Position numbers and translations under genes: made by a program
Source: Poseidonia sp.
GTDB taxonomy: Archaea; Thermoplasmatota; Poseidoniia; Poseidoniales; Poseidoniaceae
Direction: 5' to 3'
Assembly (NCBI GenBank): GCA_016778305.1
Contig: JADHPT010000002.1
Span: forward strand, 3,649 to 67,648
DNA: 64,000 bases
Notes under the pieces: generated by a model
Databases searched by the model: none
The model's input: the letters and a program-made list of their open reading frames with translations, nothing else
What the model was told of the DNA's origin: nothing
Shown here: positions 12,422 through 38,287 of the stretch, in pieces
Layout: each line of letters begins with the position of its first letter
Numbering within the stretch: position 1 is the stretch's first letter

Positions 12422-13344
12422 TGGCGATATGGATTGAAGAAGATGCAAAAGTACTCGTTCAGGGTATCACCGGAAAGCAAGGCCAATTTCACGCAGATAA
12501 GATGGTGGAATATGGTACTCAAATCGTCGGAGGATGCACGCCAGGAAAGGGTGGACAAAGCGTTGACCTTCAAGGCAAAGCCTTTCCAGTTTGGGATTCT
12601 ATGTTTGAAGCCATTGAGGCAACTGATGCAGATGCAACCGTCATCTACGTTCCTCCCCCATTCGCAGCAGAAGCCATCATGGAAGCCGCAGACGCCTTTG
12701 ATTCAATCAAAGGGGAAGGCGTTGTTGTCTGCATCACGGAAGGGATTCCCACACTCGACATGGTGAAAGCCGTCGCCTTTGTGGAAAACCGACCCGGTGT
12801 CCGTCTTATTGGACCAAATTGCCCCGGTATCATCACCCCTGGGGATGGCGGAGGAGCAAAAATTGGAATCATGCCCGGCCACATTCACGCAAAAGGTCGC
12901 ATCGGAATCGTTTCCAAATCGGGAACGCTGACCTATGAGGCCGTGGCTCAAACCATGAGCATTGATGAAGGACAATCGACCTGTGTTGGAATCGGAGGCG
13001 ACCCCGTCAATGGAACAGGTTTCATTGAATGTTTAGCAGCCTTTGAGGCCGATGAACAAACTCAGGCTATTGTCATGATTGGAGAAATCGGCGGTAATGC
13101 CGAGCAAGAAGCGGCTGCATGGGCTGCTGAAAATGTGACTAAGCCAATTGTTGGTTTCGTCGCTGGCGCAACTGCTCCACCCGGTAAGAGAATGGGGCAT
13201 GCTGGAGCAATTATCTCTGGTGGAAAGGGAACCGCAGAAGAAAAGTTTGCTGCTTTTGAAGCAGCAGGTATCGCTTGTGCCAAGGACCCTTCAGAACTAG
13301 GGAGTGTACTCCTAGAGTCGTTAAAGAAAGCTGGCCTAAGGTGA
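12421..13344 (+). CDS. sucD: Succinyl-CoA synthetase alpha subunit.
   Basis: CoA-binding N-terminus ([11 protein letters not shown]) and GPNCPG motif. Confidence 0.85.
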
Positions 13345-13353
13345 GAATTAGTA

Positions 13354-14631
13354 ATGAAAGATTTTGATTTTAATCAATATTATCAAAATCATGAAGTTGA
13401 CTTTACTTGGCTAGAAAAGCCTAGTCAGCACGAATTTCGCTGGCGCTGTGCTGATGGTAGTTGGCGAAAGTCAAAACGAAGAGTCAGTTCAATTGAGACA
13501 TTCAGGAAATCAATTTCTCAAGATAATCCTAGTGACCTCTACTTTTCCACATCTTCTTGGCTAAACCCTATTGATTTGCCAAGACTAAGTGATGAAACAA
13601 GACCTCACCCCATTCTTTTGAATCACTTGATTGTGTTTGATATTGACTTCGCCCCGTTATCTCTTGAGAACTTAGAACAGGCTAGAACAACAACACTGAA
13701 ATTACACAACTGGATTGAAAAAAATTATGATTATGAATTAATATCAATCTCATTCTCCGGTAGCAAAGGTTTCCATCTATTCTACCATGATCTAGACAGG
13801 AGTTTATTTTCCATTGAAAATGCAAGGGAAAGAGAACATGCCGTAAAAGCAGCGCGCAATAAATTGCTCCAAGAGGTATTGCTGTCAGGTTTCAAAGTAG
13901 ACCCAAGGATTACTGCTGATACCCGTAGAATCATTCGCTTACCCGGCAGTATACACGGCAAAACAGGATTATTATGCCACAGGATAAGTCTAGAAAGATT
14001 GAGCAAGAGCGTTGATTCTTGGATTGATCAAGTTCCTAGCTTTTTTGGGCAATTAGAAATGCCTAAGACTGCAAAGGCTCAAGATAAAACAACGGTAACG
14101 AAATACCTCAAAGAAAAAGAGGAACAAGTCGAACAACACACCTACATGATGGAAGTTAGCAATCACTTACCTGGAACCAAGGATAGAAGCGCACTAATCT
14201 TTTGGACACCTTATTCGTGGGGTACAGGTGCAAAATGCTTTGAACGTTTAAACACTCTAATAGAAAAGGAAAATCTAGACTGTTGTGCTATTTTTTCTGA
14301 TGGGGAAAGAGTTCTTTTCATTTGCCCTGAATCTATCACTAGGGCAAAGGTAGTAAAAATTCTAAGCGAGCTAGGTATTGAGAAATTATCGGAGAATCTA
14401 AAACAAAGAGAACATTATTGGGTTAGAATATCGGGTATAATGGATGATGATGGTATATGGCACAATGAGCCAAAGTTTATCTCTATTATTAACAATAATA
14501 ATTCAACATCAATTTTTTCAAAAGCACACTTAACATTACTAACTAAACTTGGTATTCCCATTGATAATTCTCAACATGATAAACTCGCAGGAAACAGTGA
14601 ACCAAGCATTAGAATGGTTGTTCGAGACTGA
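13354..14631 (+). CDS. Archaeo-eukaryotic primase superfamily PrimPol-like protein (425 aa) with an uncharacterised C-terminal half.
   Basis: AEP motifs are present: VFDIDF (DxD), SGSKGFHLFY (sxH) and RIIRLPGSIHGKTG. The gene starts 10 bp after the sucD stop. Its base composition is very AT-rich. Confidence 0.7.
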   Translation: MKDFDFNQYYQNHEVDFTWLEKPSQHEFRWRCADGSWRKSKRRVSSIETFRKSISQDNPSDLYFSTSSWLNPIDLPRLSDETRPHPILLNHLIVFDIDFAPLSLENLEQARTTTLKLHNWIEKNYDYELISISFSGSKGFHLFYHDLDRSLFSIENAREREHAVKAARNKLLQEVLLSGFKVDPRITADTRRIIRLPGSIHGKTGLLCHRISLERLSKSVDSWIDQVPSFFGQLEMPKTAKAQDKTTVTKYLKEKEEQVEQHTYMMEVSNHLPGTKDRSALIFWTPYSWGTGAKCFERLNTLIEKENLDCCAIFSDGERVLFICPESITRAKVVKILSELGIEKLSENLKQREHYWVRISGIMDDDGIWHNEPKFISIINNNNSTSIFSKAHLTLLTKLGIPIDNSQHDKLAGNSEPSIRMVVRD

Positions 14632-14724
14632 TTATTTATAGACTGCTTGCCGATACCTCAGATTGTCCCCAATGGAGTCTTAGGACTGTGACATTTTTCT
14701 AAAGAAGTAGAAACAATCGGTGAC

Positions 14725-14756
14725 GGCGCTCGGGGACAGCGCCTAGCCACATTTTT
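14725..14756 (+). terminator. Hairpin (GGCGCT-7 nt-AGCGCC) followed by a T5 run. Candidate terminator after the PrimPol gene.
   Basis: Perfect 6-bp inverted repeat followed by an oligo-T tract in the intergenic gap. Confidence 0.3.
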
Positions 14757-14764
14757 GTGATAAT

Positions 14765-15418
14765 ATGGTTTTAAGAAAATATATTTCAACCGTATCACTT
14801 TGTTTTCTCTTGATAGGATTAATCACACAGTCTTATCGTGATCCTGTTCATCCAGGATTATGGCTCACTTTATCTTGTTTTGTTGGTTTTGCATTATTTT
14901 GTCAAATACTTGTTAGCGTCGGGATTATGGAAATTTCGGGGCCAAAACAGGAAGCAAGAAGAGTTAGACTCGGAAATAATCAACACACTAATGATTACCG
15001 GTATTATCATTACAAATCAATAGTTGCTAAAGTACAATCAAGTGGAGTAACTGTAACTACCGTTGAAGATGCTATCAAGACATATTCAAGTTTGTTCAAT
15101 GTCGGACAAAAGGCAGCAAGGCCTTTTTTTCACAATCAGTTTGTCATGTCTACTTTGGGATTAAGTAACCAAGTAATAGATTCTCCTTCACAAGTCATAA
15201 ACCCATCTAACGATAAATCCAAAAAATTAGATTCAACCTTTTGGGATAATGTTTCAAAGGGTGTTGCAATAAATGAAGGAAACTCTGATGAAATTTGTGC
15301 AGACCCTAACTGTTCAAAGCCTGTGTCTGCATTTGATTTCCGTTGCTTCAAGTGCCGAAGTAGATTCTGTGGTGATTGTGAAAGTGGCAAGAGCATTATG
15401 TGCAAGGCATGTTCATAG
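14765..15418 (+). CDS. Membrane-anchored protein with a C-terminal multi-Cys zinc-ribbon cluster.
   Basis: Two N-terminal TM helices. C-terminus reads CADPNC...CFKCRSRFCGDC...CKAC. Low GC, like its neighbours. Confidence 0.5.
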   Translation: MVLRKYISTVSLCFLLIGLITQSYRDPVHPGLWLTLSCFVGFALFCQILVSVGIMEISGPKQEARRVRLGNNQHTNDYRYYHYKSIVAKVQSSGVTVTTVEDAIKTYSSLFNVGQKAARPFFHNQFVMSTLGLSNQVIDSPSQVINPSNDKSKKLDSTFWDNVSKGVAINEGNSDEICADPNCSKPVSAFDFRCFKCRSRFCGDCESGKSIMCKACS

Positions 15419-18196
15419 GAATATTTCTTTTCTGTGTAAAGAATTTTGAGGGATCATCGTAGATGCCTTAATGATTTCAACTCTCATTTTACCATCTTTA
15501 CTTCTTGCGTAAAATAGCTCTGATGGGCTGACAAATTGATTCCAATATTGCTGGAAGATTTCAGCCTTTTCTGATGATGCAGCCAGAATTTTGGGGACTG
15601 TGTGGTACATTACAAGTTTGTCTTTTACTGGCCTGAAAAACTTGGCAATAACTTCAGGCATGAGTTTTGATAACCATGTGTCGGTAATAAATTTGGAAGA
15701 ACGGGAAATAACATATCTTGGCTTGTCTAATGGTCCAAGTATTTCCTCTAAACAAGCAGTAAACAATGCACTCTCTTCTTCAGTAGCATTCTCGAGATGT
15801 AAGCGTACCCAGCCACCTCCTCGATTACCACCATCTGCCCGACAATTCCTCGAAACCATTCCAAGATGGATGAGGCTGTTGATTATTGAAAGTGAAATGG
15901 CTTTTACTAGAGATTCGTCAGTCCAAGGTGATTTTTCTCTACCAAACTTAAATCCGCCACCAAAACCAGTACTTAACCTAGCTTCGATTGCTGAAGTTGG
16001 TTTTGCATTAAATGGTTGGCCTATCCCCCATAATCCTCTGAGATGAGTCCTATTCCGGCTACGTCGCAACATATCTTCATTAAATGCTGACATTCCCTCA
16101 CTTACTCCTTCTGGCTCAGCCTCAGTAAATGCTGCATGAACATGGCCAACTCCTTTCTCAATTGCACCATCATCACATACACCATACAGTTGCTTATGCT
16201 TTTTCTTGAAACGGTCATAATCAGCAAAGCCATTGGTGAACTCTTCCGCTAAACAAACAATATCCCAATTATTGGCAACTTTTTCCGGCCAGTTTTTATC
16301 TAATCTTATTGAGCGACCCCTCAGTTGATTGATACTCATGCTGGTAGTAACAGTTGTTAGATCGATTAGTACGTTGATTCGTGATGCATCCCAGCCTTCT
16401 CCAAGAAGACCTCGTGTTCCAATAAGACACTTTGTAATGCCTGATTGGAAAAACTCAGTTATCATTAACGAATAGTGTCGGGGAATCCAGTCCTTGCCTT
16501 TACCAATAATTTCATGATAATCTCCTCTTAACTCATCGATCAAAGTTATTGCTAGGTCTCTTTCTTTTATCCAATTATTTGCTGCTTTAAGGAATTCTTC
16601 CGCAAGGTCATCATCAACAAGTACTGTACTACCTGTCATCAAAATCGGATTTAGTAAATCTACATTATCGCATCGTACTGCTTGTCTAAATGCTGCAACT
16701 GCGCCACCTGCTTCATCATCCATCACCCCTTCGACCAAAGTCGTGGCTGATGTTTTCTCAAAATCGGTTATTATTACTGCTCGGATATCCCCGCCTAAGG
16801 CTTGCATTTCAGAACTTAGAATTGTAGATATTGCCTTTGTTTTTGATGATGCATAGGCCATTATCCTGCCGACTGGTGAGGCGCAAGGACGAATCCCTGT
16901 TTCAGTTATTTGAGTGCCTAACATCCGCAACCTTTGAGTAACCAAGTCTGCTTTTTTATGGTCCAATTTACTTTCACTTCTGCGTAATCCATGCCTTACA
17001 TAGCGGTCTAATACTGGTCTTAGTATTGCCAGCTTATTTTGGTAATTCTCTAAAAGGTGGCTTGGTGGATGAGGTACTCCTGCTGGCAAATCACCATTTG
17101 TGTAAATCAAAAAAGCCCTAGCTGCATCGGCAAACGCAGAGTTTCTTTTGGCAAATTGTTTCCAATCTTCCTCCTTACCCCCTGGGGATTTTCTTTCATC
17201 AAGAGCATCAAAAATCCATTTATTAATTGGTGCTGTGGCATCTTCATAATTTTGTTCTTGATGTAAATCATCGAGTATTTCCTTGAATTCTTCATCAACC
17301 TGTGCAACGTAATTTAATTCATTTTGCGATGGCCTAACAAAATAAGCCAGGTCTTGGTAAGGAGCTAGGTTTGAATCTCTTACTAAAGCCGGCACTGGAA
17401 CTTCATAGTCAATATCCCCAAAGAATTCTTGATATCTTTTAGAATCAATCTCATCATAATGTTCAAAATCCGGCGGAGTTGCTGTTAGGCCAAGGACAAT
17501 TGGATTATCGAAGTATTCTCGTACCTCTGTAAGAACTCTACCCCAATGGTGTAGTAAATGATGACACTCATCCAAGATTATCAAACCGATACCAACTTGT
17601 TTTAATCGCTCCAAGGTTTTTCTCGATGATTCACTTAGAGTCCATAAAGCGTTACCATGTTGCGAGAAATCATCTCTAACCTTTTTTCTATAGACCGATA
17701 TCCTATCTTCGAAATATTTGGTGTTTTTCAGCTGTAAATCATTTATCCAAGCAAGAGCAGATTCATCATCGATTGCCTCTTTTTTAGTAATTAATGACTT
17801 TATCCAAAGTTCAATTGCAGCCTCATCTAGATTCTCTCCTCCCATCTTTGGCATAGTTATTGACTGATATGTTAGACTGGTCAATAAACCAGGGTTTGCT
17901 GGATCAGTACTAATAAATTCATCTTTCCCATCTAAATCAAAAAGGTCGGTTCGTGCTGCCCACTGTGCCTGAATTGCTGAGTTAGGAGAGAGGACTAAGG
18001 TCGGTTTTCTTACCAGGTCAGACCAAACATACAGACCTAGTACTGTTTTTCCGGAACCTGGTGGAGCAACTATGTGTAAGTGCTTTCCTTGTTGATCTAG
18101 TTCAGGTTCAATTATTGAGGCAGCCGCTATTTGTGAAGGTCTTAATTTACCATTGAATCTTATAGCCCCAAATTCTGGTAAAGTTTCAGTGCCCAA
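15413..18196 (-). CDS. Superfamily-2 DExH-box helicase (927 aa) with a ~450-aa uncharacterised C-terminal region.
   Basis: Motif I APPGSGKT, motif II ILDECHH and motif III GLTATP are present. The helicase-C motif LRGRSIR is also there. Low GC. Confidence 0.7.
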   Translation of the reverse strand: MGTETLPEFGAIRFNGKLRPSQIAAASIIEPELDQQGKHLHIVAPPGSGKTVLGLYVWSDLVRKPTLVLSPNSAIQAQWAARTDLFDLDGKDEFISTDPANPGLLTSLTYQSITMPKMGGENLDEAAIELWIKSLITKKEAIDDESALAWINDLQLKNTKYFEDRISVYRKKVRDDFSQHGNALWTLSESSRKTLERLKQVGIGLIILDECHHLLHHWGRVLTEVREYFDNPIVLGLTATPPDFEHYDEIDSKRYQEFFGDIDYEVPVPALVRDSNLAPYQDLAYFVRPSQNELNYVAQVDEEFKEILDDLHQEQNYEDATAPINKWIFDALDERKSPGGKEEDWKQFAKRNSAFADAARAFLIYTNGDLPAGVPHPPSHLLENYQNKLAILRPVLDRYVRHGLRRSESKLDHKKADLVTQRLRMLGTQITETGIRPCASPVGRIMAYASSKTKAISTILSSEMQALGGDIRAVIITDFEKTSATTLVEGVMDDEAGGAVAAFRQAVRCDNVDLLNPILMTGSTVLVDDDLAEEFLKAANNWIKERDLAITLIDELRGDYHEIIGKGKDWIPRHYSLMITEFFQSGITKCLIGTRGLLGEGWDASRINVLIDLTTVTTSMSINQLRGRSIRLDKNWPEKVANNWDIVCLAEEFTNGFADYDRFKKKHKQLYGVCDDGAIEKGVGHVHAAFTEAEPEGVSEGMSAFNEDMLRRSRNRTHLRGLWGIGQPFNAKPTSAIEARLSTGFGGGFKFGREKSPWTDESLVKAISLSIINSLIHLGMVSRNCRADGGNRGGGWVRLHLENATEEESALFTACLEEILGPLDKPRYVISRSSKFITDTWLSKLMPEVIAKFFRPVKDKLVMYHTVPKILAASSEKAEIFQQYWNQFVSPSELFYARSKDGKMRVEIIKASTMIPQNSLHRKEIFL

Positions 18197-18208
18197 AAGT
18201 AACCCTCA

Positions 18209-19825
18209 TCATCTAGGAGGGCCACGCTTAGGTCCCTTCGGAAGGCCGCTTTTCGGACCGCCCGATGGAGGTCCTCTTGATGAGCCACCAGGTGGTCCCG
18301 GTTTCTTGGTTGGTGGTGATTTTGATGGAGGTGATCTTCCCGGTGCCTTAGATGGTCCGCCGGGTGGGCCGCCTTTGGATGGACCGCCGGGTGGGCCGCC
18401 TCTGGATGGACCGCCCGGAGGACCGCCGCTCTTCTTCGGACCGCCCGGAGGACCGCCGCTCTTCTTCGGACCGCCCGGAGGACCGCCGCTCTTCTTCGGA
18501 CCCGGAGGACCGCCGCTCTTCTTGGGACCGGGTGGACCGCCGCTCTTCTTCGGACCCGGAGGACCGCCGCTCTTCTTGGGACCGGGTGGACCGCCGCTCT
18601 TCTTGGGACCGGGTGGACCTGAGCGGGATGGAGTAGGAGCTTGTTCTTCCTCTTCTTCTTCTTCGAACACAGCGCCACAATGTGGACAAGTGGAGTCGCT
18701 TTCTTTCACCAAACCATCGCATATTTCACATGCAAACATGTCTTCTTCTGGTTCCTCTTCGCCGATTTTCTCTGTTTTGCCATCCTTGGAACGGAACAAT
18801 GTCACGGTACATGACAGGTCATATCCCTTGAGGGCCATTTCAGTTTGGATGGCATGTTCAAAGGCTTGCGTCAAATCTTCGGGAGTATCCAACACTCTTC
18901 CATCGTCAACATAGGTCACATTCACCTGGAAAACATCTCCTTCCAGCTTACATTGTGGGGCTTCAACGGCAACACCACGTTTTCGTGCTACCCTGCGAAT
19001 GGCAACTTCAGAGATTCTACGGAGAAGTGCATCATTGGGCGCATCATTACTGCTGCCACCAAGAGCGCCTGCCATGATCTCCGCAGCAGGGTTGACTGCA
19101 TCAGCACCTCCTGCACGGAGATGGGCTGGAAGCTCTCCTCCCCCAAGGTTTGCAAGGACGTTTGAGGCAGGTGATTGGTTCATCGAAAGCCATTGACTAC
19201 GTCGCTCATCTTTGACCGCTCGCTCAGCTTCTGCCAAACGATTGACCATAGCATCGGTTGGTGAATTGGCGGGATTGTGCGCGATTTTCGTTCCTCCGGG
19301 AGAAAGTGGGGAGACGTTATTGGTTGCAGGAAGAGCGCCGCTTGCAATCGACGGCCCGCGAGGGATGGTTGGCAAATCAGATGCAGGTGGCATATTCGTT
19401 GGTTGAGGTTGGGGGGGGAATTGGTTGTTCGGGAGATAACCGCCTTGCAAAGGTTGGTTGGGATAAACGCCAGGTGGAAGATTTGGTTGTTGTTGAATAC
19501 CTTGTGCCATACCCTGCAACATATCGGGGGAGATTTGACCCATTTGGTTCATATTATGTTCCTGTTGCATCCGTTGGTCATGGCCTGCGACGGGGTCAAA
19601 TGTACGTGGTTGTTGAGGGAAAGGAGGAAGATTTTGAGGTATGTGTTGAGGGGGGTTTGGCTGGAAGCCTCCAGCAACTGTGTTATCTTGCCTTGCGCCG
19701 CATTCAGGGCAGAACATACTGTCTGCTGGAATAACTTCTCCACAAGAACCGCAATTCATGGTGCCCTCTCCTGTAAGATACGCTTGGGTCACCCTTCCTA
19801 AAGCATTGTGTAAAAAAGCCATCAA
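18209..19825 (-). CDS. Pro/Gln-rich low-complexity protein with N- and C-terminal zinc ribbons and tandem PPGPKKSGG repeats. The start is more likely the internal Met near 19759.
   Basis: CGSCGEV...CPEC and CEIC...CPHC zinc ribbons. An acidic E-run and about 10 tandem basic Pro-Gly repeats. Only 13 bp separate its stop from the helicase start. Confidence 0.55.
   Translation of the reverse strand: MMAFLHNALGRVTQAYLTGEGTMNCGSCGEVIPADSMFCPECGARQDNTVAGGFQPNPPQHIPQNLPPFPQQPRTFDPVAGHDQRMQQEHNMNQMGQISPDMLQGMAQGIQQQPNLPPGVYPNQPLQGGYLPNNQFPPQPQPTNMPPASDLPTIPRGPSIASGALPATNNVSPLSPGGTKIAHNPANSPTDAMVNRLAEAERAVKDERRSQWLSMNQSPASNVLANLGGGELPAHLRAGGADAVNPAAEIMAGALGGSSNDAPNDALLRRISEVAIRRVARKRGVAVEAPQCKLEGDVFQVNVTYVDDGRVLDTPEDLTQAFEHAIQTEMALKGYDLSCTVTLFRSKDGKTEKIGEEEPEEDMFACEICDGLVKESDSTCPHCGAVFEEEEEEEQAPTPSRSGPPGPKKSGGPPGPKKSGGPPGPKKSGGPPGPKKSGGPPGPKKSGGPPGGPKKSGGPPGGPKKSGGPPGGPSRGGPPGGPSKGGPPGGPSKAPGRSPPSKSPPTKKPGPPGGSSRGPPSGGPKSGLPKGPKRGPPR
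18355..18625 (-). repeat. In-frame tandem repeat of 27-30 bp with about 10 units, including three identical 30-bp copies.
   Basis: Units of type ggaccgcccggaggaccgccgctcttcttc repeat head-to-tail. They encode PPGPKKSGG. Confidence 0.85.
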
Positions 19826-38283: not shown

Positions 38284-38287
38284 AGAG

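What the first reader, a model, noticed from the sequence alone, without database searches (positions are those of the whole stretch)
13354..18196. Seamlessly inserted low-GC island encoding a PrimPol, a Zn-ribbon membrane protein and a DExH SF2 helicase
Base composition drops sharply from about 50% GC to about 35% exactly at the sucD stop (13344). The PrimPol ATG follows only 10 bp later. Composition returns to native values exactly at the helicase start (18196), which lies 13 bp from the stop of the native-composition Pro-rich gene. Inside the island are an AEP primase-polymerase (DxD, sxH and RLPGSIHGKTG motifs), a two-TM protein with a multi-Cys zinc ribbon, and a 927-aa SF2 helicase. No integrase, tRNA target, direct repeat or capsid gene is visible. 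This looks like either a highly reduced integrated replicon or virus remnant, or a non-canonical primase-helicase module. The module could serve defence or DNA damage tolerance. The PrimPol is positioned to be co-transcribed with sucCD.
Basis: partly seen in the sequence, partly recalled or inferred. Interest (0 to 1): 0.8.

Follow-up and report, generated by a model that had tools for sequence, protein, structure and literature searches.

The report
Borrowed primase–helicase gene block in archaeon
The low-GC stretch is not a virus or mobile element but a standard Marine Group II archaeal gene block (primase-like enzyme, small zinc-finger membrane protein, helicase) that this species swapped in from a distant low-GC relative by homologous recombination, and it also contains a conserved, pseudoknotted RNA that matches no Rfam family.

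Summary
The GC drop is real: 0.389 inside versus 0.504 outside, and GC3 0.27–0.31 versus 0.42–0.54. The window is a ~50%-GC Poseidoniaceae (Marine Group II) chromosome.

The three genes are not an inserted replicon. The same module sits at the same sucD|ZnPro site, at native GC, in most Poseidoniaceae. Here the copy is foreign. Flanking genes place the genome with ~50–59%-GC Poseidonia relatives (sister L014, 94% aa). The cassette is 91–100% nt identical to ~39–41%-GC genomes whose flanks are the most distant.

Crossovers lie inside sucD (13113–13125) and inside the ZnPro repeat region (~18340–18490). There is no integrase, att site or nearby tRNA. Three independent MAGs share both junctions. 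This indicates inter-genus homologous replacement.

The "PrimPol" is a divergent PriS-type AEP found throughout Poseidoniales, even as a solo gene, so it is probably the lineage's primase catalytic subunit. The small protein carries an AN1-like zinc finger. The helicase is an XPB/ResIII-like SF2 enzyme.

Unexpectedly, the AEP–small-ORF spacer holds an order-wide ~98-nt pseudoknotted RNA with strong covariation and no Rfam match.

The parts
13113..13125 (.). Left recombination crossover, inside sucD (codons ~232-236)
   Evidence: Informative sites, sister L014 versus donor-like L010/L009. Upstream of 13080: 115 host-type, 23 donor-type, 21 neither. From 13105 on: 2 host-type, 50 donor-type, 1 neither. 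The last host-type site is 13113 and the first of the donor run is 13125. Sliding identity agrees.
13125..13344 (+). Donor-derived 3' end of sucD
   Evidence: 95-100% nt identical to the low-GC genomes L010/L009, but only 67-82% to sister L014.
13354..14631 (+). PriS-type archaeo-eukaryotic primase (AEP), 425 aa: N-terminal catalytic domain plus a conserved C-terminal domain of unknown fold
   Evidence: PF01896 E=1.1e-8, above the gathering score. The only NCBIfam and PDB matches are PriS, but sub-threshold. VFDID, FSGSKGFHL and TADxRRIxRLPG..TG are invariant across genera. 98% aa to L010, 96% to L009, 93% to L005, all in 39-40% GC genomes. Orthologs occur in both Poseidoniales families.
14635..14642 (+). 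Archaeal TATA-like box (TTTATAGA), putative promoter of the RNA/small-ORF transcript
   Evidence: Sits directly after the AEP stop and about 25-30 nt upstream of the RNA's first conserved base. A TTTATA/ATTATA-like box is at the same position in all lineages, while the spacer between it and the RNA is not conserved. Promoter function is inferred.
14661..14758 (+). Conserved pseudoknotted RNA element (no Rfam family). PK 14664-14670 pairs with 14732-14738. P2 is 14677-14679/14684-14686. P3 is about 14696-14707. P4 is 14719-14729/14739-14748.
   Evidence: Covariance model hit of 94.4 bits, E=3e-18, and the only copy in the window. 70 copies aligned: 91.4% of cells paired versus 34-52% when slid, 14/21 pairs with compensatory changes, covariation score 0.306 versus 0.143 in shuffles (0/500). 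The PK helix, which is not in the model, is 95.4% paired with 6/7 pairs compensatory. P3 forms a hairpin in 32/37 variants. No Rfam match.
14765..15418 (+). Small membrane protein (217 aa): N-terminal TM segments, conserved middle block, C-terminal 8-Cys AN1-like zinc finger
   Evidence: PF01428 zf-AN1 is hit by 9/13 family members, best E=3e-5. The window's own copy has no hit, because its His ligands are replaced by Cys. It is hypervariable: 91-93% to L005/L009 but 54-62% to L007/L094.
15413..18196 (-). SF2 helicase (927 aa), ResIII/XPB-like core with a large insert and a ~280-aa C-terminal region of unknown fold. It lies directly downstream of ZnPro on the minus strand.
   Evidence: ResIII E=5.8e-17, DEAD 1.8e-7, Helicase_C 0.013. 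PHROG16 'DNA helicase' 4e-26. XPB equivalog scores only 30.8 bits against a cut-off of 610. Nearest PDB matches are archaeal XPB/Rad25, RecA1 domain only. 97% aa to P0121/L094 and 92% to L007, both low-GC genomes, versus 54-61% to the window's phylogenetic neighbours.
18209..18490 (-). Donor-derived 3' end of the Zn-ribbon/Pro-rich gene, containing the right crossover (~18340-18490) within the 27-nt tandem repeats
   Evidence: Window 18196-18270 is nearly identical to L007/L005. Identity to L094 is 94-96% up to ~18340, 83% at 18342-18441, and <=69% beyond. ZnPro residues 1-400 are closest to Poseidonia-group genomes. Tandem repeats span 18351-18619.

Best explanation
The low-GC segment is a xenologous copy of a resident chromosomal gene module, brought in by homologous recombination. 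It is not an integrated element. Poseidoniales archaea carry a conserved module: a PriS-type AEP, a pseudoknotted RNA leader, an AN1-zinc-finger membrane protein, and a convergent SF2 helicase. In most Poseidoniaceae this module sits between sucD and a Zn-ribbon/Pro-rich gene. In the window's ~50%-GC species, DNA from a ~39-41%-GC Poseidoniaceae genus that carries the module at the same syntenic site recombined through the conserved flanks. One crossover fell in sucD at 13113-13125 and the other in the ZnPro 3' repeats at ~18340-18490. The ~5.3-kb tract replaced the resident helicase allele. It also (re)introduced the AEP, the RNA and the small ORF, which the closest relatives lack at this site. 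The event is recent, because GC and GC3 are unameliorated and stretches are 95-100% nt identical to donor-like genomes. Shown: composition, synteny, phylogenetic discordance, breakpoints, and reproducibility of the junctions. Inferred: (i) the AEP is the lineage's primase catalytic subunit (PriS ortholog), translated from a sucCD-AEP transcript; (ii) the helicase is a DNA repair or replication translocase transcribed with ZnPro; (iii) the RNA is the structured 5' leader that controls the AN1 protein gene; (iv) the module therefore serves chromosome replication or repair, not defence.
For: Composition. Same gene order at native GC in relatives with 68-96% AEP identity. AEP sits 11-80 bp after sucD in 75/75 informative metagenomic loci. 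Discordance: the flanks (TIM+NTP-transferase+sucC+sucD) are closest to L014 (94%) and to Poseidonia genomes (82-86%). The AEP and helicase are closest to L010 (98%), L009 (96%), L005 (93%), L007 (helicase 92%) and L094 (helicase 97%), whose flanks are the most distant at 75-77%. NJ bootstrap: on flanks the window is nearest Poseidonia taxa in 100/100 replicates and sister to a low-GC taxon in 0/100; on the helicase it is sister to L007 in 100/100. The sister L014 and Poseidonia type-B genomes have sucD followed directly by a helicase only 54-56% identical, at native GC3, with no AEP or small ORF. Breakpoints lie inside conserved coding flanks. No integrase, att site or nearby tRNA. Three independently assembled NCBI MAGs (GCA_016779745.1, GCA_016779715.1, GCA_016777165.1) share both junctions at 99.7-99.97% nt identity while differing in ZnPro repeat number. 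At the left junction the proxy parental sequences share only 11 identical bases, and at most 20 anywhere in sucD, which is too short for a k-mer assembly chimera. Core-gene status of the AEP: orthologs occur in Ca. Poseidonia alphae (solo gene, native GC), in Thalassarchaeaceae and in another lineage, each followed by the same RNA. Only PriS-type matches.
Against: No sampled genome matches the whole cassette at >=99%. Relative to the sampled donors the cassette is itself mosaic: L005/L010-like to ~16390 and L007-like beyond, with the small ORF differing again in L094. The direct donor is therefore unsampled, or several exchanges occurred. Read-level support for the junctions could not be examined. 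Whether the recipient's immediate ancestor lacked the AEP at this site rests on a single sister contig (L014) plus the Poseidonia type-B genomes. PriS identity is not proven. Scores are far below the PriS equivalog cut-offs (49-53 bits versus 143-577), the Zn-knuckle of canonical PriS is absent, and I could not search whole Poseidoniales genomes for a second, canonical PriS or for PriL. Both AlphaFold models were too poor to use.
Confidence: 0.82

Rival explanations
1. Metagenomic assembly or binning chimera: the contig joins a 50%-GC Poseidonia-like genome to a 5-kb piece of a co-occurring low-GC Poseidoniaceae population at the conserved syntenic locus.
For: Low-GC relatives with a 93%-identical AEP occur in the same MAG series (L005, GCA_016777145.1). 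The locus is syntenic in both lineages. All data are MAGs or metagenome contigs.
Against: Three separately assembled MAGs carry identical junctions but differ by SNPs and in repeat number. A double switch back into the same genome would be required. At the left junction the proxy parents share only 11 identical nt, and at most 20 nt anywhere in sucD. No sampled low-GC genome is identical to the cassette: best is 97.7% nt over the AEP, and 86-92% over the whole.
Confidence: 0.05
2. Integrated mobile element or virus remnant: a reduced self-replicating element with its own primase and helicase inserted between sucD and the Pro-rich gene.
For: Sharp compositional island. The primase + helicase pairing is typical of MGE replication modules, and there are PHROG hits for both proteins. 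At deep phylogenetic distance the three-gene module sits at other positions (L176; L177 between TIM and the NTP-transferase), and some Poseidoniales have an empty sucD|ZnPro site. So the module has moved as a unit at least a few times in the history of the order.
Against: No integrase, att repeats, tRNA target, capsid or other MGE genes. The foreign tract ends inside host genes, as expected for homologous recombination and not for site-specific insertion. At >=40% identity the AEP lies next to sucD in 75/75 loci. The module is at native GC in every other lineage. There is no AEP relative and only remote SF2-motif hits in 2.9 M viral contigs. The known 4.6-kb Charybdis elements of Poseidoniales encode no primase or helicase (bioRxiv 10.1101/2025.08.03.668216).
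Confidence: 0.04
3. Fast-evolving defence or conflict module: the AEP/AN1/helicase trio is an anti-virus system whose alleles are exchanged between lineages under diversifying selection, which would explain the hypervariable small ORF and the repeated allele swapping.
For: The AEP (41% between genera where sucC is 88%) and the small ORF (26-60%) diverge much faster than the flanks. Other lineages show discordant combinations: L076 AEP 47%/helicase 83%; L007 versus L005 small ORF 54% versus 91%; L031 helicase of Poseidonia type on L085-like flanks. The helicase has weak PADLOC hits (PbeA 6e-10, type I REase).
Against: The AEP and helicase are present throughout the order, in closed ~2-Mb genomes, each as one copy per locus. 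Defence systems are normally patchy. There is no PADLOC hit for the AEP, and the helicase hits cover only the generic SF2 core. Catalytic motifs are invariant and all matches are to PriS.
Confidence: 0.08
4. Vertical inheritance with locally maintained low GC: the three genes are native and stay AT-rich through selection or a regional mutational bias.
For: In low-GC relatives the AEP is also slightly below its genome average.
Against: In other GC-rich Poseidonia genomes the cassette has native GC3 of 0.6-0.7 (L015, L016, L040, L048). The window's cassette is 91-100% nt identical to genomes whose flanks are only ~75% identical. Tree discordance is 100/100.
Confidence: 0.01

Closest known systems
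Homologous-recombination-mediated xenologous (orthologous) gene replacement across species or genus boundaries in archaea and bacteria (e.g. recombinant haloarchaeal hybrids; from my own knowledge, not tested here)
   Same: The foreign allele replaces the resident one in situ. The crossovers lie in conserved flanking genes. There is no integrase or att site. The result is a compositional step plus phylogenetic discordance confined to a few kb.
   Different: Donor and recipient differ by ~10 GC points, and their flanks are only ~75-80% nt identical at the crossover. The tract also re-installs genes (AEP, RNA, small ORF) that the closest relatives lack at this site. The genes involved are probable replication or repair genes of uncultured Marine Group II archaea, and I found no report of such exchange at this locus.
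Archaeal DNA primase small subunit PriS (PF01896; TIGR00335; PDB 1ZT2, 1G71, 1V33)
   Same: AEP fold signatures: DxD, SGxKGFH and the D..T.D.RR(I/L)IRLPGS.HGKTG motif III. Matches are colinear with the PriS models. The protein is present in every Poseidoniales lineage examined. Some sources name it 'DNA primase catalytic subunit' or 'DNA primase small subunit domain-containing protein'.
   Different: It scores far below the equivalog cut-offs. There is no Zn-knuckle between motifs I and II. It carries an extra conserved ~190-aa C-terminal domain. It is linked to sucCD, an RNA, an AN1 protein and an SF2 helicase. A PriL partnership is untested.
XPB/Rad25 and ResIII-type SF2 helicases
   Same: Walker A GSGKT, DECH box, TATP, and QxxGRxxR motif VI. 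The best solved relatives are A. fulgidus XPB (2FZ4/2FWR).
   Different: Only RecA1 aligns, at E~1e-3. There is an ~85-aa insert within RecA1 (between motifs Ia and II), a ~200-aa insert between motif III and RecA2, and a ~280-aa C-terminal region with no detectable homologs of known function. The XPB equivalog scores 30.8 bits against 610.
AN1-type zinc finger (PF01428)
   Same: C-x4-C-x10-C-x2-C-x4-C-x2-[H/C]-x6-[C]-x2-C spacing. The canonical 'FCxxH' is present in L032, L176 and L177.
   Different: It is fused to N-terminal transmembrane segments and a lineage-specific middle domain. In the window's clade the His ligands are replaced by Cys, and Pfam does not score that copy.
H-type pseudoknotted cis-regulatory RNAs (riboswitch-like leaders)
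   Same: About 98 nt, with its own promoter-like box. The 5' strand pairs with the loop of a 3' hairpin. Single-stranded junctions are conserved. The element ends a few nt before the SD and start codon of the downstream gene.
   Different: No match to any of the 4227 Rfam 15 families. The ligand or protein partner is unknown. It is restricted, as far as seen, to Poseidoniales and always lies 3' of the PriS-like gene.

Membership tests
Archaeo-eukaryotic primase (AEP) superfamily | Catalytic motifs I (DxD), II (sxH) and III (hD/…RLPGS.H) in order, and a match to an AEP profile above threshold | tested here: met
   PF01896 scores 36.1 bits against a gathering score of 26.8. VFDID, FSGSKGFHL and TADTRRIIRLPGSIHGKTG are invariant in 17 cross-genus sequences. 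Motifs II and III align to PDB PriS chains.
Canonical archaeal PriS (NCBIfam equivalogs NF001639, NF001641, TIGR00335) | Whole-protein score above the curated equivalog cut-off | tested here: not met
   53, 49.5 and 48.7 bits against cut-offs of 577, 326 and 143.5. The same holds for distant family members.
Canonical archaeal PriS | Zn-binding knuckle/stem inserted between motifs I and II | tested here: not met
   Only ~36 residues separate DxD (96-98) from SGSKGFH (135-141), with no Cys/His cluster. The only Cys invariant across the family is C208.
Canonical archaeal PriS | Single, universally present copy per genome that partners with PriL | not testable with these tools
   Orthologs were found in every Poseidoniales lineage sampled, including a solo copy in Ca. 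Poseidonia alphae. Whole genomes could not be searched for a second PriS or for PriL.
   No such Pfam or NCBIfam hit at E<=0.1 for the window protein. Every PDB hit is PriS. One distant relative (P0269) gives a weak LigD-pol hit of 3e-6, well below PriS.
SF2 helicase | Walker A, DExH, motif III and motif VI in two RecA-like domains | tested here: met
   ResIII E=5.8e-17, DEAD 1.8e-7, Helicase_C 0.013 at residues 581-632. GSGKT, DECH, TATP and QLRGRSIR are invariant in the cross-genus alignment.
XPB/Rad25 DNA repair helicase | Equivalog-level match (NF045503) over the whole protein | tested here: not met
   30.8 bits against a cut-off of 610, covering residues 17-82 only. PDB XPB hits are limited to RecA1 at E~1e-3.
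AN1 zinc finger (PF01428) | Profile match and the Cys/His ligand pattern | tested here: inconclusive
   9 of 13 family members match, best E=3e-5, but the window's own copy gives no hit. Its 8-Cys pattern is aligned and invariant.
Integrated mobile element / prophage remnant | Integrase or transposase, flanking att/direct repeats, tRNA or other specific target, and boundaries at the element ends | tested here: not met
   Only three ORFs, none an integrase. No flanking repeats. The nearest tRNA is at 38287. The foreign tract ends inside sucD and ZnPro.
Known anti-phage defence systems (PADLOC-DB 2.0) | Full-length matches to the components of a defined system | tested here: not met
   AEP: no hit. 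Small ORF: 0.048. Helicase: partial SF2-core matches only (PbeA 6e-10 over ~130 aa).
Any Rfam 15 RNA family (for the 14661-14758 element) | Covariance-model match at or near the gathering score | tested here: not met
   Best hits are 19 bits (gathering 55) and 13 bits (gathering 80), both chance-level. Nothing at gathering score in the window except one tRNA.

The most novel reading that the evidence does not exclude
The AEP, pseudoknot RNA, AN1 membrane protein and SF2 helicase form a previously unrecognised, order-wide replication/repair module of Marine Group II archaea. Its catalytic primase subunit is a highly divergent PriS that can be exchanged between genera. This species may therefore carry two xenologous PriS genes: a native solo copy, as in Ca. 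Poseidonia alphae, plus the imported one. The RNA would be a new riboswitch-like or protein-binding regulator, one of very few structured cis-regulators known in archaea, coupling expression of the AN1 protein to the state of the module.
Probability: 0.25. Interest if true: 0.75.

Novelty: new member of a known kind. Interest (0 to 1): 0.55.

Why it matters
Marine Group II archaea are among the most abundant surface-ocean microbes, they are uncultured, and their replication machinery is known only by annotation. Three points matter here.

First, genes that look like core replication or repair genes (a PriS-type primase and a conserved SF2 helicase) can be swapped between genera that differ by 10 GC points. 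The swap happens by plain homologous recombination at a syntenic site, and it leaves a signature that mimics a genomic island. Island-calling and MAG-contamination filters would both misread this.

Second, the likely PriS of this order is so divergent that NCBI annotates it as hypothetical, and TIGR00335, which is used as an archaeal phylogenomic marker, scores it far below its cut-off (48.7 vs 143.5 bits). This matters for marker-based completeness estimates and phylogeny.

Third, a strongly covarying, pseudoknotted RNA with no Rfam family is conserved across both Poseidoniales families next to this gene. It is a concrete, testable candidate for a new archaeal cis-regulatory RNA.

Tried and rejected
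1. AlphaFold2 on the AEP (41-sequence MSA) and the helicase (28-sequence MSA) gave pLDDT 47 and 40. The MSAs allowed by the tool were too shallow (>=68% identity). I therefore ran no fold searches, because matches to such models would be meaningless.

2. Viral origin. No AEP relative was found in IMG/VR. The helicase profile found only 7 remote partial SF2 matches. Magrovirus replication modules use MCM and a halovirus-like AEP (PMC5434244). Charybdis elements lack primase and helicase.

3. Defence. PADLOC was negative or partial.

4. Flanking repeats or att sites: none beyond chance-level short matches. The sigma-70 promoter and terminator scan is not applicable to archaea and was not informative.

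5. Literature on PriS in Marine Group II. Nothing specific was found, and the supplementary tables that might list PriS per genome were not held.

6. RNA identity. Rfam was negative. I also considered hammerhead, twister, C/D-box, H/ACA and k-turn readings by eye and rejected them, because the required core nucleotides (CUGA…GAAA, an ACA box, tandem G·A pairs) are not conserved across lineages. The single-sequence fold was not significant (z=-0.44); the support comes from covariation.

7. PriS–PriL fusion. Rejected, because there is no conserved 4-Cys cluster in the AEP C-terminal domain.

Full report
**1. The observation**

The window is a ~50%-GC chromosome fragment. The only 1-kb bins below 0.46 GC are those between 13 and 18 kb. 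Segment 13354-18196 has GC 0.389 against 0.504 elsewhere. The drop is strongest at third codon positions. GC3 is 0.31 for the AEP, 0.27 for the small ORF and 0.29 for the helicase, against 0.42-0.54 in the neighbouring genes. So it reflects history, not amino-acid content.

There is no integrase and there are no flanking repeats. The only tRNA is 20 kb away.

**2. The organism and the locus**

The AEP has hundreds of homologs at 68-98% identity. All come from Poseidoniales (Marine Group II) MAGs and marine metagenomes, some on contigs of hundreds of kb. The helicase family occurs on closed ~2-Mb contigs.

In every relative I fetched, the gene order is the same: sucC, sucD, AEP, small ORF, helicase(-), Zn-ribbon/Pro-rich gene(-), SQS, SQS. 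In a separate metagenome scan the AEP lay 11-80 bp downstream of sucD in 75 of 75 informative loci, and never elsewhere. This is a resident locus, not an insertion site for a mobile element.

**3. Why it is low-GC only here**

The relatives with the most similar cassettes are ~38-42%-GC genomes, in which the cassette does not stand out. Per-gene comparison gives a discordant picture.
- The window's AEP is 98%, 96% and 93% identical to L010, L009 and L005. Its small ORF is 91-93% identical to L005/L009. Its helicase is 97% and 92% identical to L094 and L007.
- The flanking genes of those same genomes are no closer to the window than any other Poseidoniaceae: NTP-transferase 55-58%, TIM 72-73%, sucC 82%, SQS1 76%.

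A panel of 80 GTDB species representatives shows the converse.
- By flanks, the window's nearest relatives are L014 (94% over four genes) and the ~48-60%-GC Poseidonia group (82-86%).
- Those genomes carry a helicase only 54-61% identical, at native GC3. Their AEP is either 41% identical (L015, L016, L040, L048; GC3 0.6-0.7) or absent from the site.

In L014, L023 and about a dozen others, sucD is followed directly by the convergent helicase.

NJ bootstrapping confirms the conflict. On six flank genes (2,028 aa) the window is nearest a Poseidonia taxon in 100/100 replicates and is never sister to a low-GC taxon. On the helicase it is sister to low-GC L007 in 100/100.

**4. Breakpoints and mechanism**

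Informative sites inside sucD switch abruptly. Upstream of 13080, 115 sites match the sister L014 and 23 match the donor-like L010/L009. From 13105 onward, 2 match the sister and 50 match the donors. The last host-type site is 13113 and the donor run begins at 13125 (sliding identity).

On the other side, the intergenic spacer and the extreme 3' end of the Pro-rich gene are still donor-like. Identity to the low-GC contig L094 stays at 94-96% up to ~18340 and collapses beyond ~18440. Residues 1-400 of the Pro-rich protein are host-like.

The imported tract is therefore ~5.3 kb, from inside sucD to inside the 27-nt tandem repeats of the Pro-rich gene. Crossovers within conserved flanking genes, and no site-specific recombination signatures, are what homologous recombination produces. 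The neat gene-edge GC boundaries are partly an illusion, because the donor's sucD tail and Pro/Gly codons are themselves GC-rich.

**5. Artefact check**

The exact AEP protein occurs in three separately deposited MAGs. Their contigs match the window at 99.7-99.97% over 11-20 kb, including both junctions. They differ by a few SNPs and in the number of Pro-rich repeats.

At the left junction the proxy parental sequences share only 11 identical bases, and at most 20 anywhere in sucD. No sampled low-GC genome is identical to the cassette. A double-crossover assembly chimera recurring identically is therefore very unlikely. Read-level confirmation remains the decisive missing test.

**6. The locus is dynamic across the order**

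Species representatives fall into three states: empty (sucD|ZnPro), helicase only, and the full AEP–small ORF–helicase cassette.

Other lineages also show discordant combinations.
- L076: AEP 47%, helicase 83%.
- L007 versus L005: small ORF 54% versus 91%.
- L031: helicase of Poseidonia type-B on L085-like flanks.

The window's own cassette is mosaic relative to the sampled donors. Allele exchange at this locus appears to be recurrent.

**7. What the genes are**

- **AEP.** Every profile or structure-sequence match is to archaeal PriS (PF01896; NF001639, NF001641, TIGR00335; PDB 1ZT2, 1G71, 1V33, 9F26). None is to a PrimPol-type family. But the scores are far below the PriS equivalog cut-offs and the Zn-knuckle is missing. 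An exhaustive HMMER search found 621 clusters of relatives. Many are 400-450 aa and colinear over the full length, and they are likewise sub-threshold PriS-like proteins of uncultured archaea.
- **AEP distribution.** Divergent orthologs (36-41% identity) exist where the sucD site lacks the gene. Ca. Poseidonia alphae, which is helicase-only at sucD, has a solo copy elsewhere at native GC. A Thalassarchaeaceae (MGIIb) genome has the whole trio between TIM and the NTP-transferase. A third lineage has the trio in an unrelated neighbourhood. An order-wide, catalytically intact, PriS-type gene is most simply the lineage's primase catalytic subunit. That is an inference, because I could not search whole genomes for another PriS or for PriL.
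- **Small protein.** It has N-terminal TM segments, a conserved middle block and a C-terminal AN1-like zinc finger (zf-AN1 in 9/13 members).
- **Helicase.** It is an SF2 enzyme with a ResIII/XPB-like RecA1, large inserts, and a ~280-aa C-terminal region with no recognisable relatives.
- **Other tests.** PADLOC and viral searches give no support for defence or viral origin. Both AlphaFold models were unusable.

**8. An unexpected RNA**

The 133-nt spacer between the AEP and the small ORF is better conserved than the proteins around it. It starts with a TATA-like box (14635-14642) immediately after the AEP stop. About 25 nt further on there is a ~98-nt element (14661-14758) with these parts:
- a 5' strand (14664-14670) complementary to the loop (14732-14738) of a GC-rich 3' hairpin P4, which makes an H-type pseudoknot;
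- a short hairpin P2;
- a length-variable hairpin P3;
- conserved single-stranded junctions: AAUGGAGUC, RUGACA, AGAnnCAAuCGG.

The Shine-Dalgarno sequence and start codon of the small ORF follow within 5-20 nt.

On 47 MAFFT-aligned copies the pseudoknot is 97% paired, with 5/7 pairs compensatory. P3 folds as a single hairpin in 32/37 distinct variants, with unrelated stem sequences.

A covariance model that does not encode the pseudoknot finds exactly one copy per AEP locus. That includes Ca. P. alphae (E=1.5e-4), L176 (1e-7) and Thalassarchaeaceae (2.5e-3). It finds none elsewhere in the window or in AEP-less loci.

On the resulting 70-sequence alignment, 91.4% of cells pair (34-52% when slid). 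14/21 pairs show compensatory changes. The covariation score is 0.306 versus 0.143±0.007 in shuffles (0/500). The pseudoknot is 95% paired, with 6/7 pairs compensatory.

No Rfam 15 family matches, and I found no description in the literature searched. I read it as a structured 5' leader, either riboswitch-like or protein-binding, of the AN1 gene. An independent small RNA is the alternative.

**9. Verdict**

The compositional island is real and foreign. It is a recent inter-genus homologous replacement at a conserved chromosomal locus, not an integrated replicon, and the 'PrimPol' is a divergent PriS-type primase. As an evolutionary event it is a new example of a known process. The uncharacterised order-wide module, and especially the RNA that matches no Rfam family, are the parts most worth following up.

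Noticed in passing
window 14661-14758 (+), with TATA-like box at 14635-14642: An order-wide conserved, pseudoknotted ~98-nt RNA lies between the AEP and the small AN1 ORF. It shows strong covariation in all helices, has no Rfam family, and occurs as one copy per AEP locus in both Poseidoniaceae and Thalassarchaeaceae.
   Followed up: yes
L175 8001-9715; L176 8001-13331; L177 8001-13036: The AEP–RNA–small ORF(–helicase) module sits at other positions in other lineages. In Ca. Poseidonia alphae there is a solo AEP plus the RNA plus a truncated 86-aa small ORF. In a Thalassarchaeaceae genome the module lies between TIM and the NTP-transferase. In a third lineage the neighbourhood is unrelated. 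All copies are at native GC.
   Followed up: partly
L031, L076, L007 vs L005, L094 (cassette regions): Other lineages also carry discordant allele combinations at this locus. L031 has a Poseidonia-type helicase on L085-like flanks. L076 has AEP 47% but helicase 83%. The small ORF is 54-62% in L007/L094 but 91% in L005. This suggests a recurrent recombination hot spot.
   Followed up: partly
window 18351-18619 (-), C-terminus of the Zn-ribbon/Pro-rich protein (18209-19825): 27-30-nt tandem repeats encode PGPKKSGGP-type units. Their copy number differs between otherwise 99.7-99.97%-identical MAGs (protein lengths of 498-538 aa were called). The right recombination crossover falls within or next to this array.
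   Followed up: partly
L053, L058, L060, L171 (between AEP and helicase); L032, L085: In some lineages the interval between the AEP and the AN1 C-terminus is ~0.7-1.4 kb longer. In L032 and L085 the small protein has a ~120-aa N-terminal extension (330-337 aa). The content of the longer intervals was not examined.
   Followed up: no
window 13326-13356: An AGGTGA Shine-Dalgarno-like sequence overlaps the sucD stop codon, 9 nt upstream of the AEP ATG. This is consistent with translational coupling of the AEP to sucCD. The 11-80 bp spacing is conserved in 75/75 loci.
   Followed up: partly
L039 (NZEQ01000088.1): This contig is deposited as 'Verrucomicrobiales bacterium isolate ARS100'. It carries a typical Poseidonia sucCD–helicase locus (sucD 94-95%, TIM 83% to the window), so it is evidently mis-binned.
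   Followed up: no
window 15413-15418: The small ORF and the convergent helicase overlap by 6 bp at their 3' ends, and the two genes abut in the same way in the related loci (tblastn matches end and start at adjacent bases). The helicase start lies 12 nt downstream of the ZnPro stop on the minus strand, which suggests a ZnPro–helicase transcription unit.
   Followed up: no
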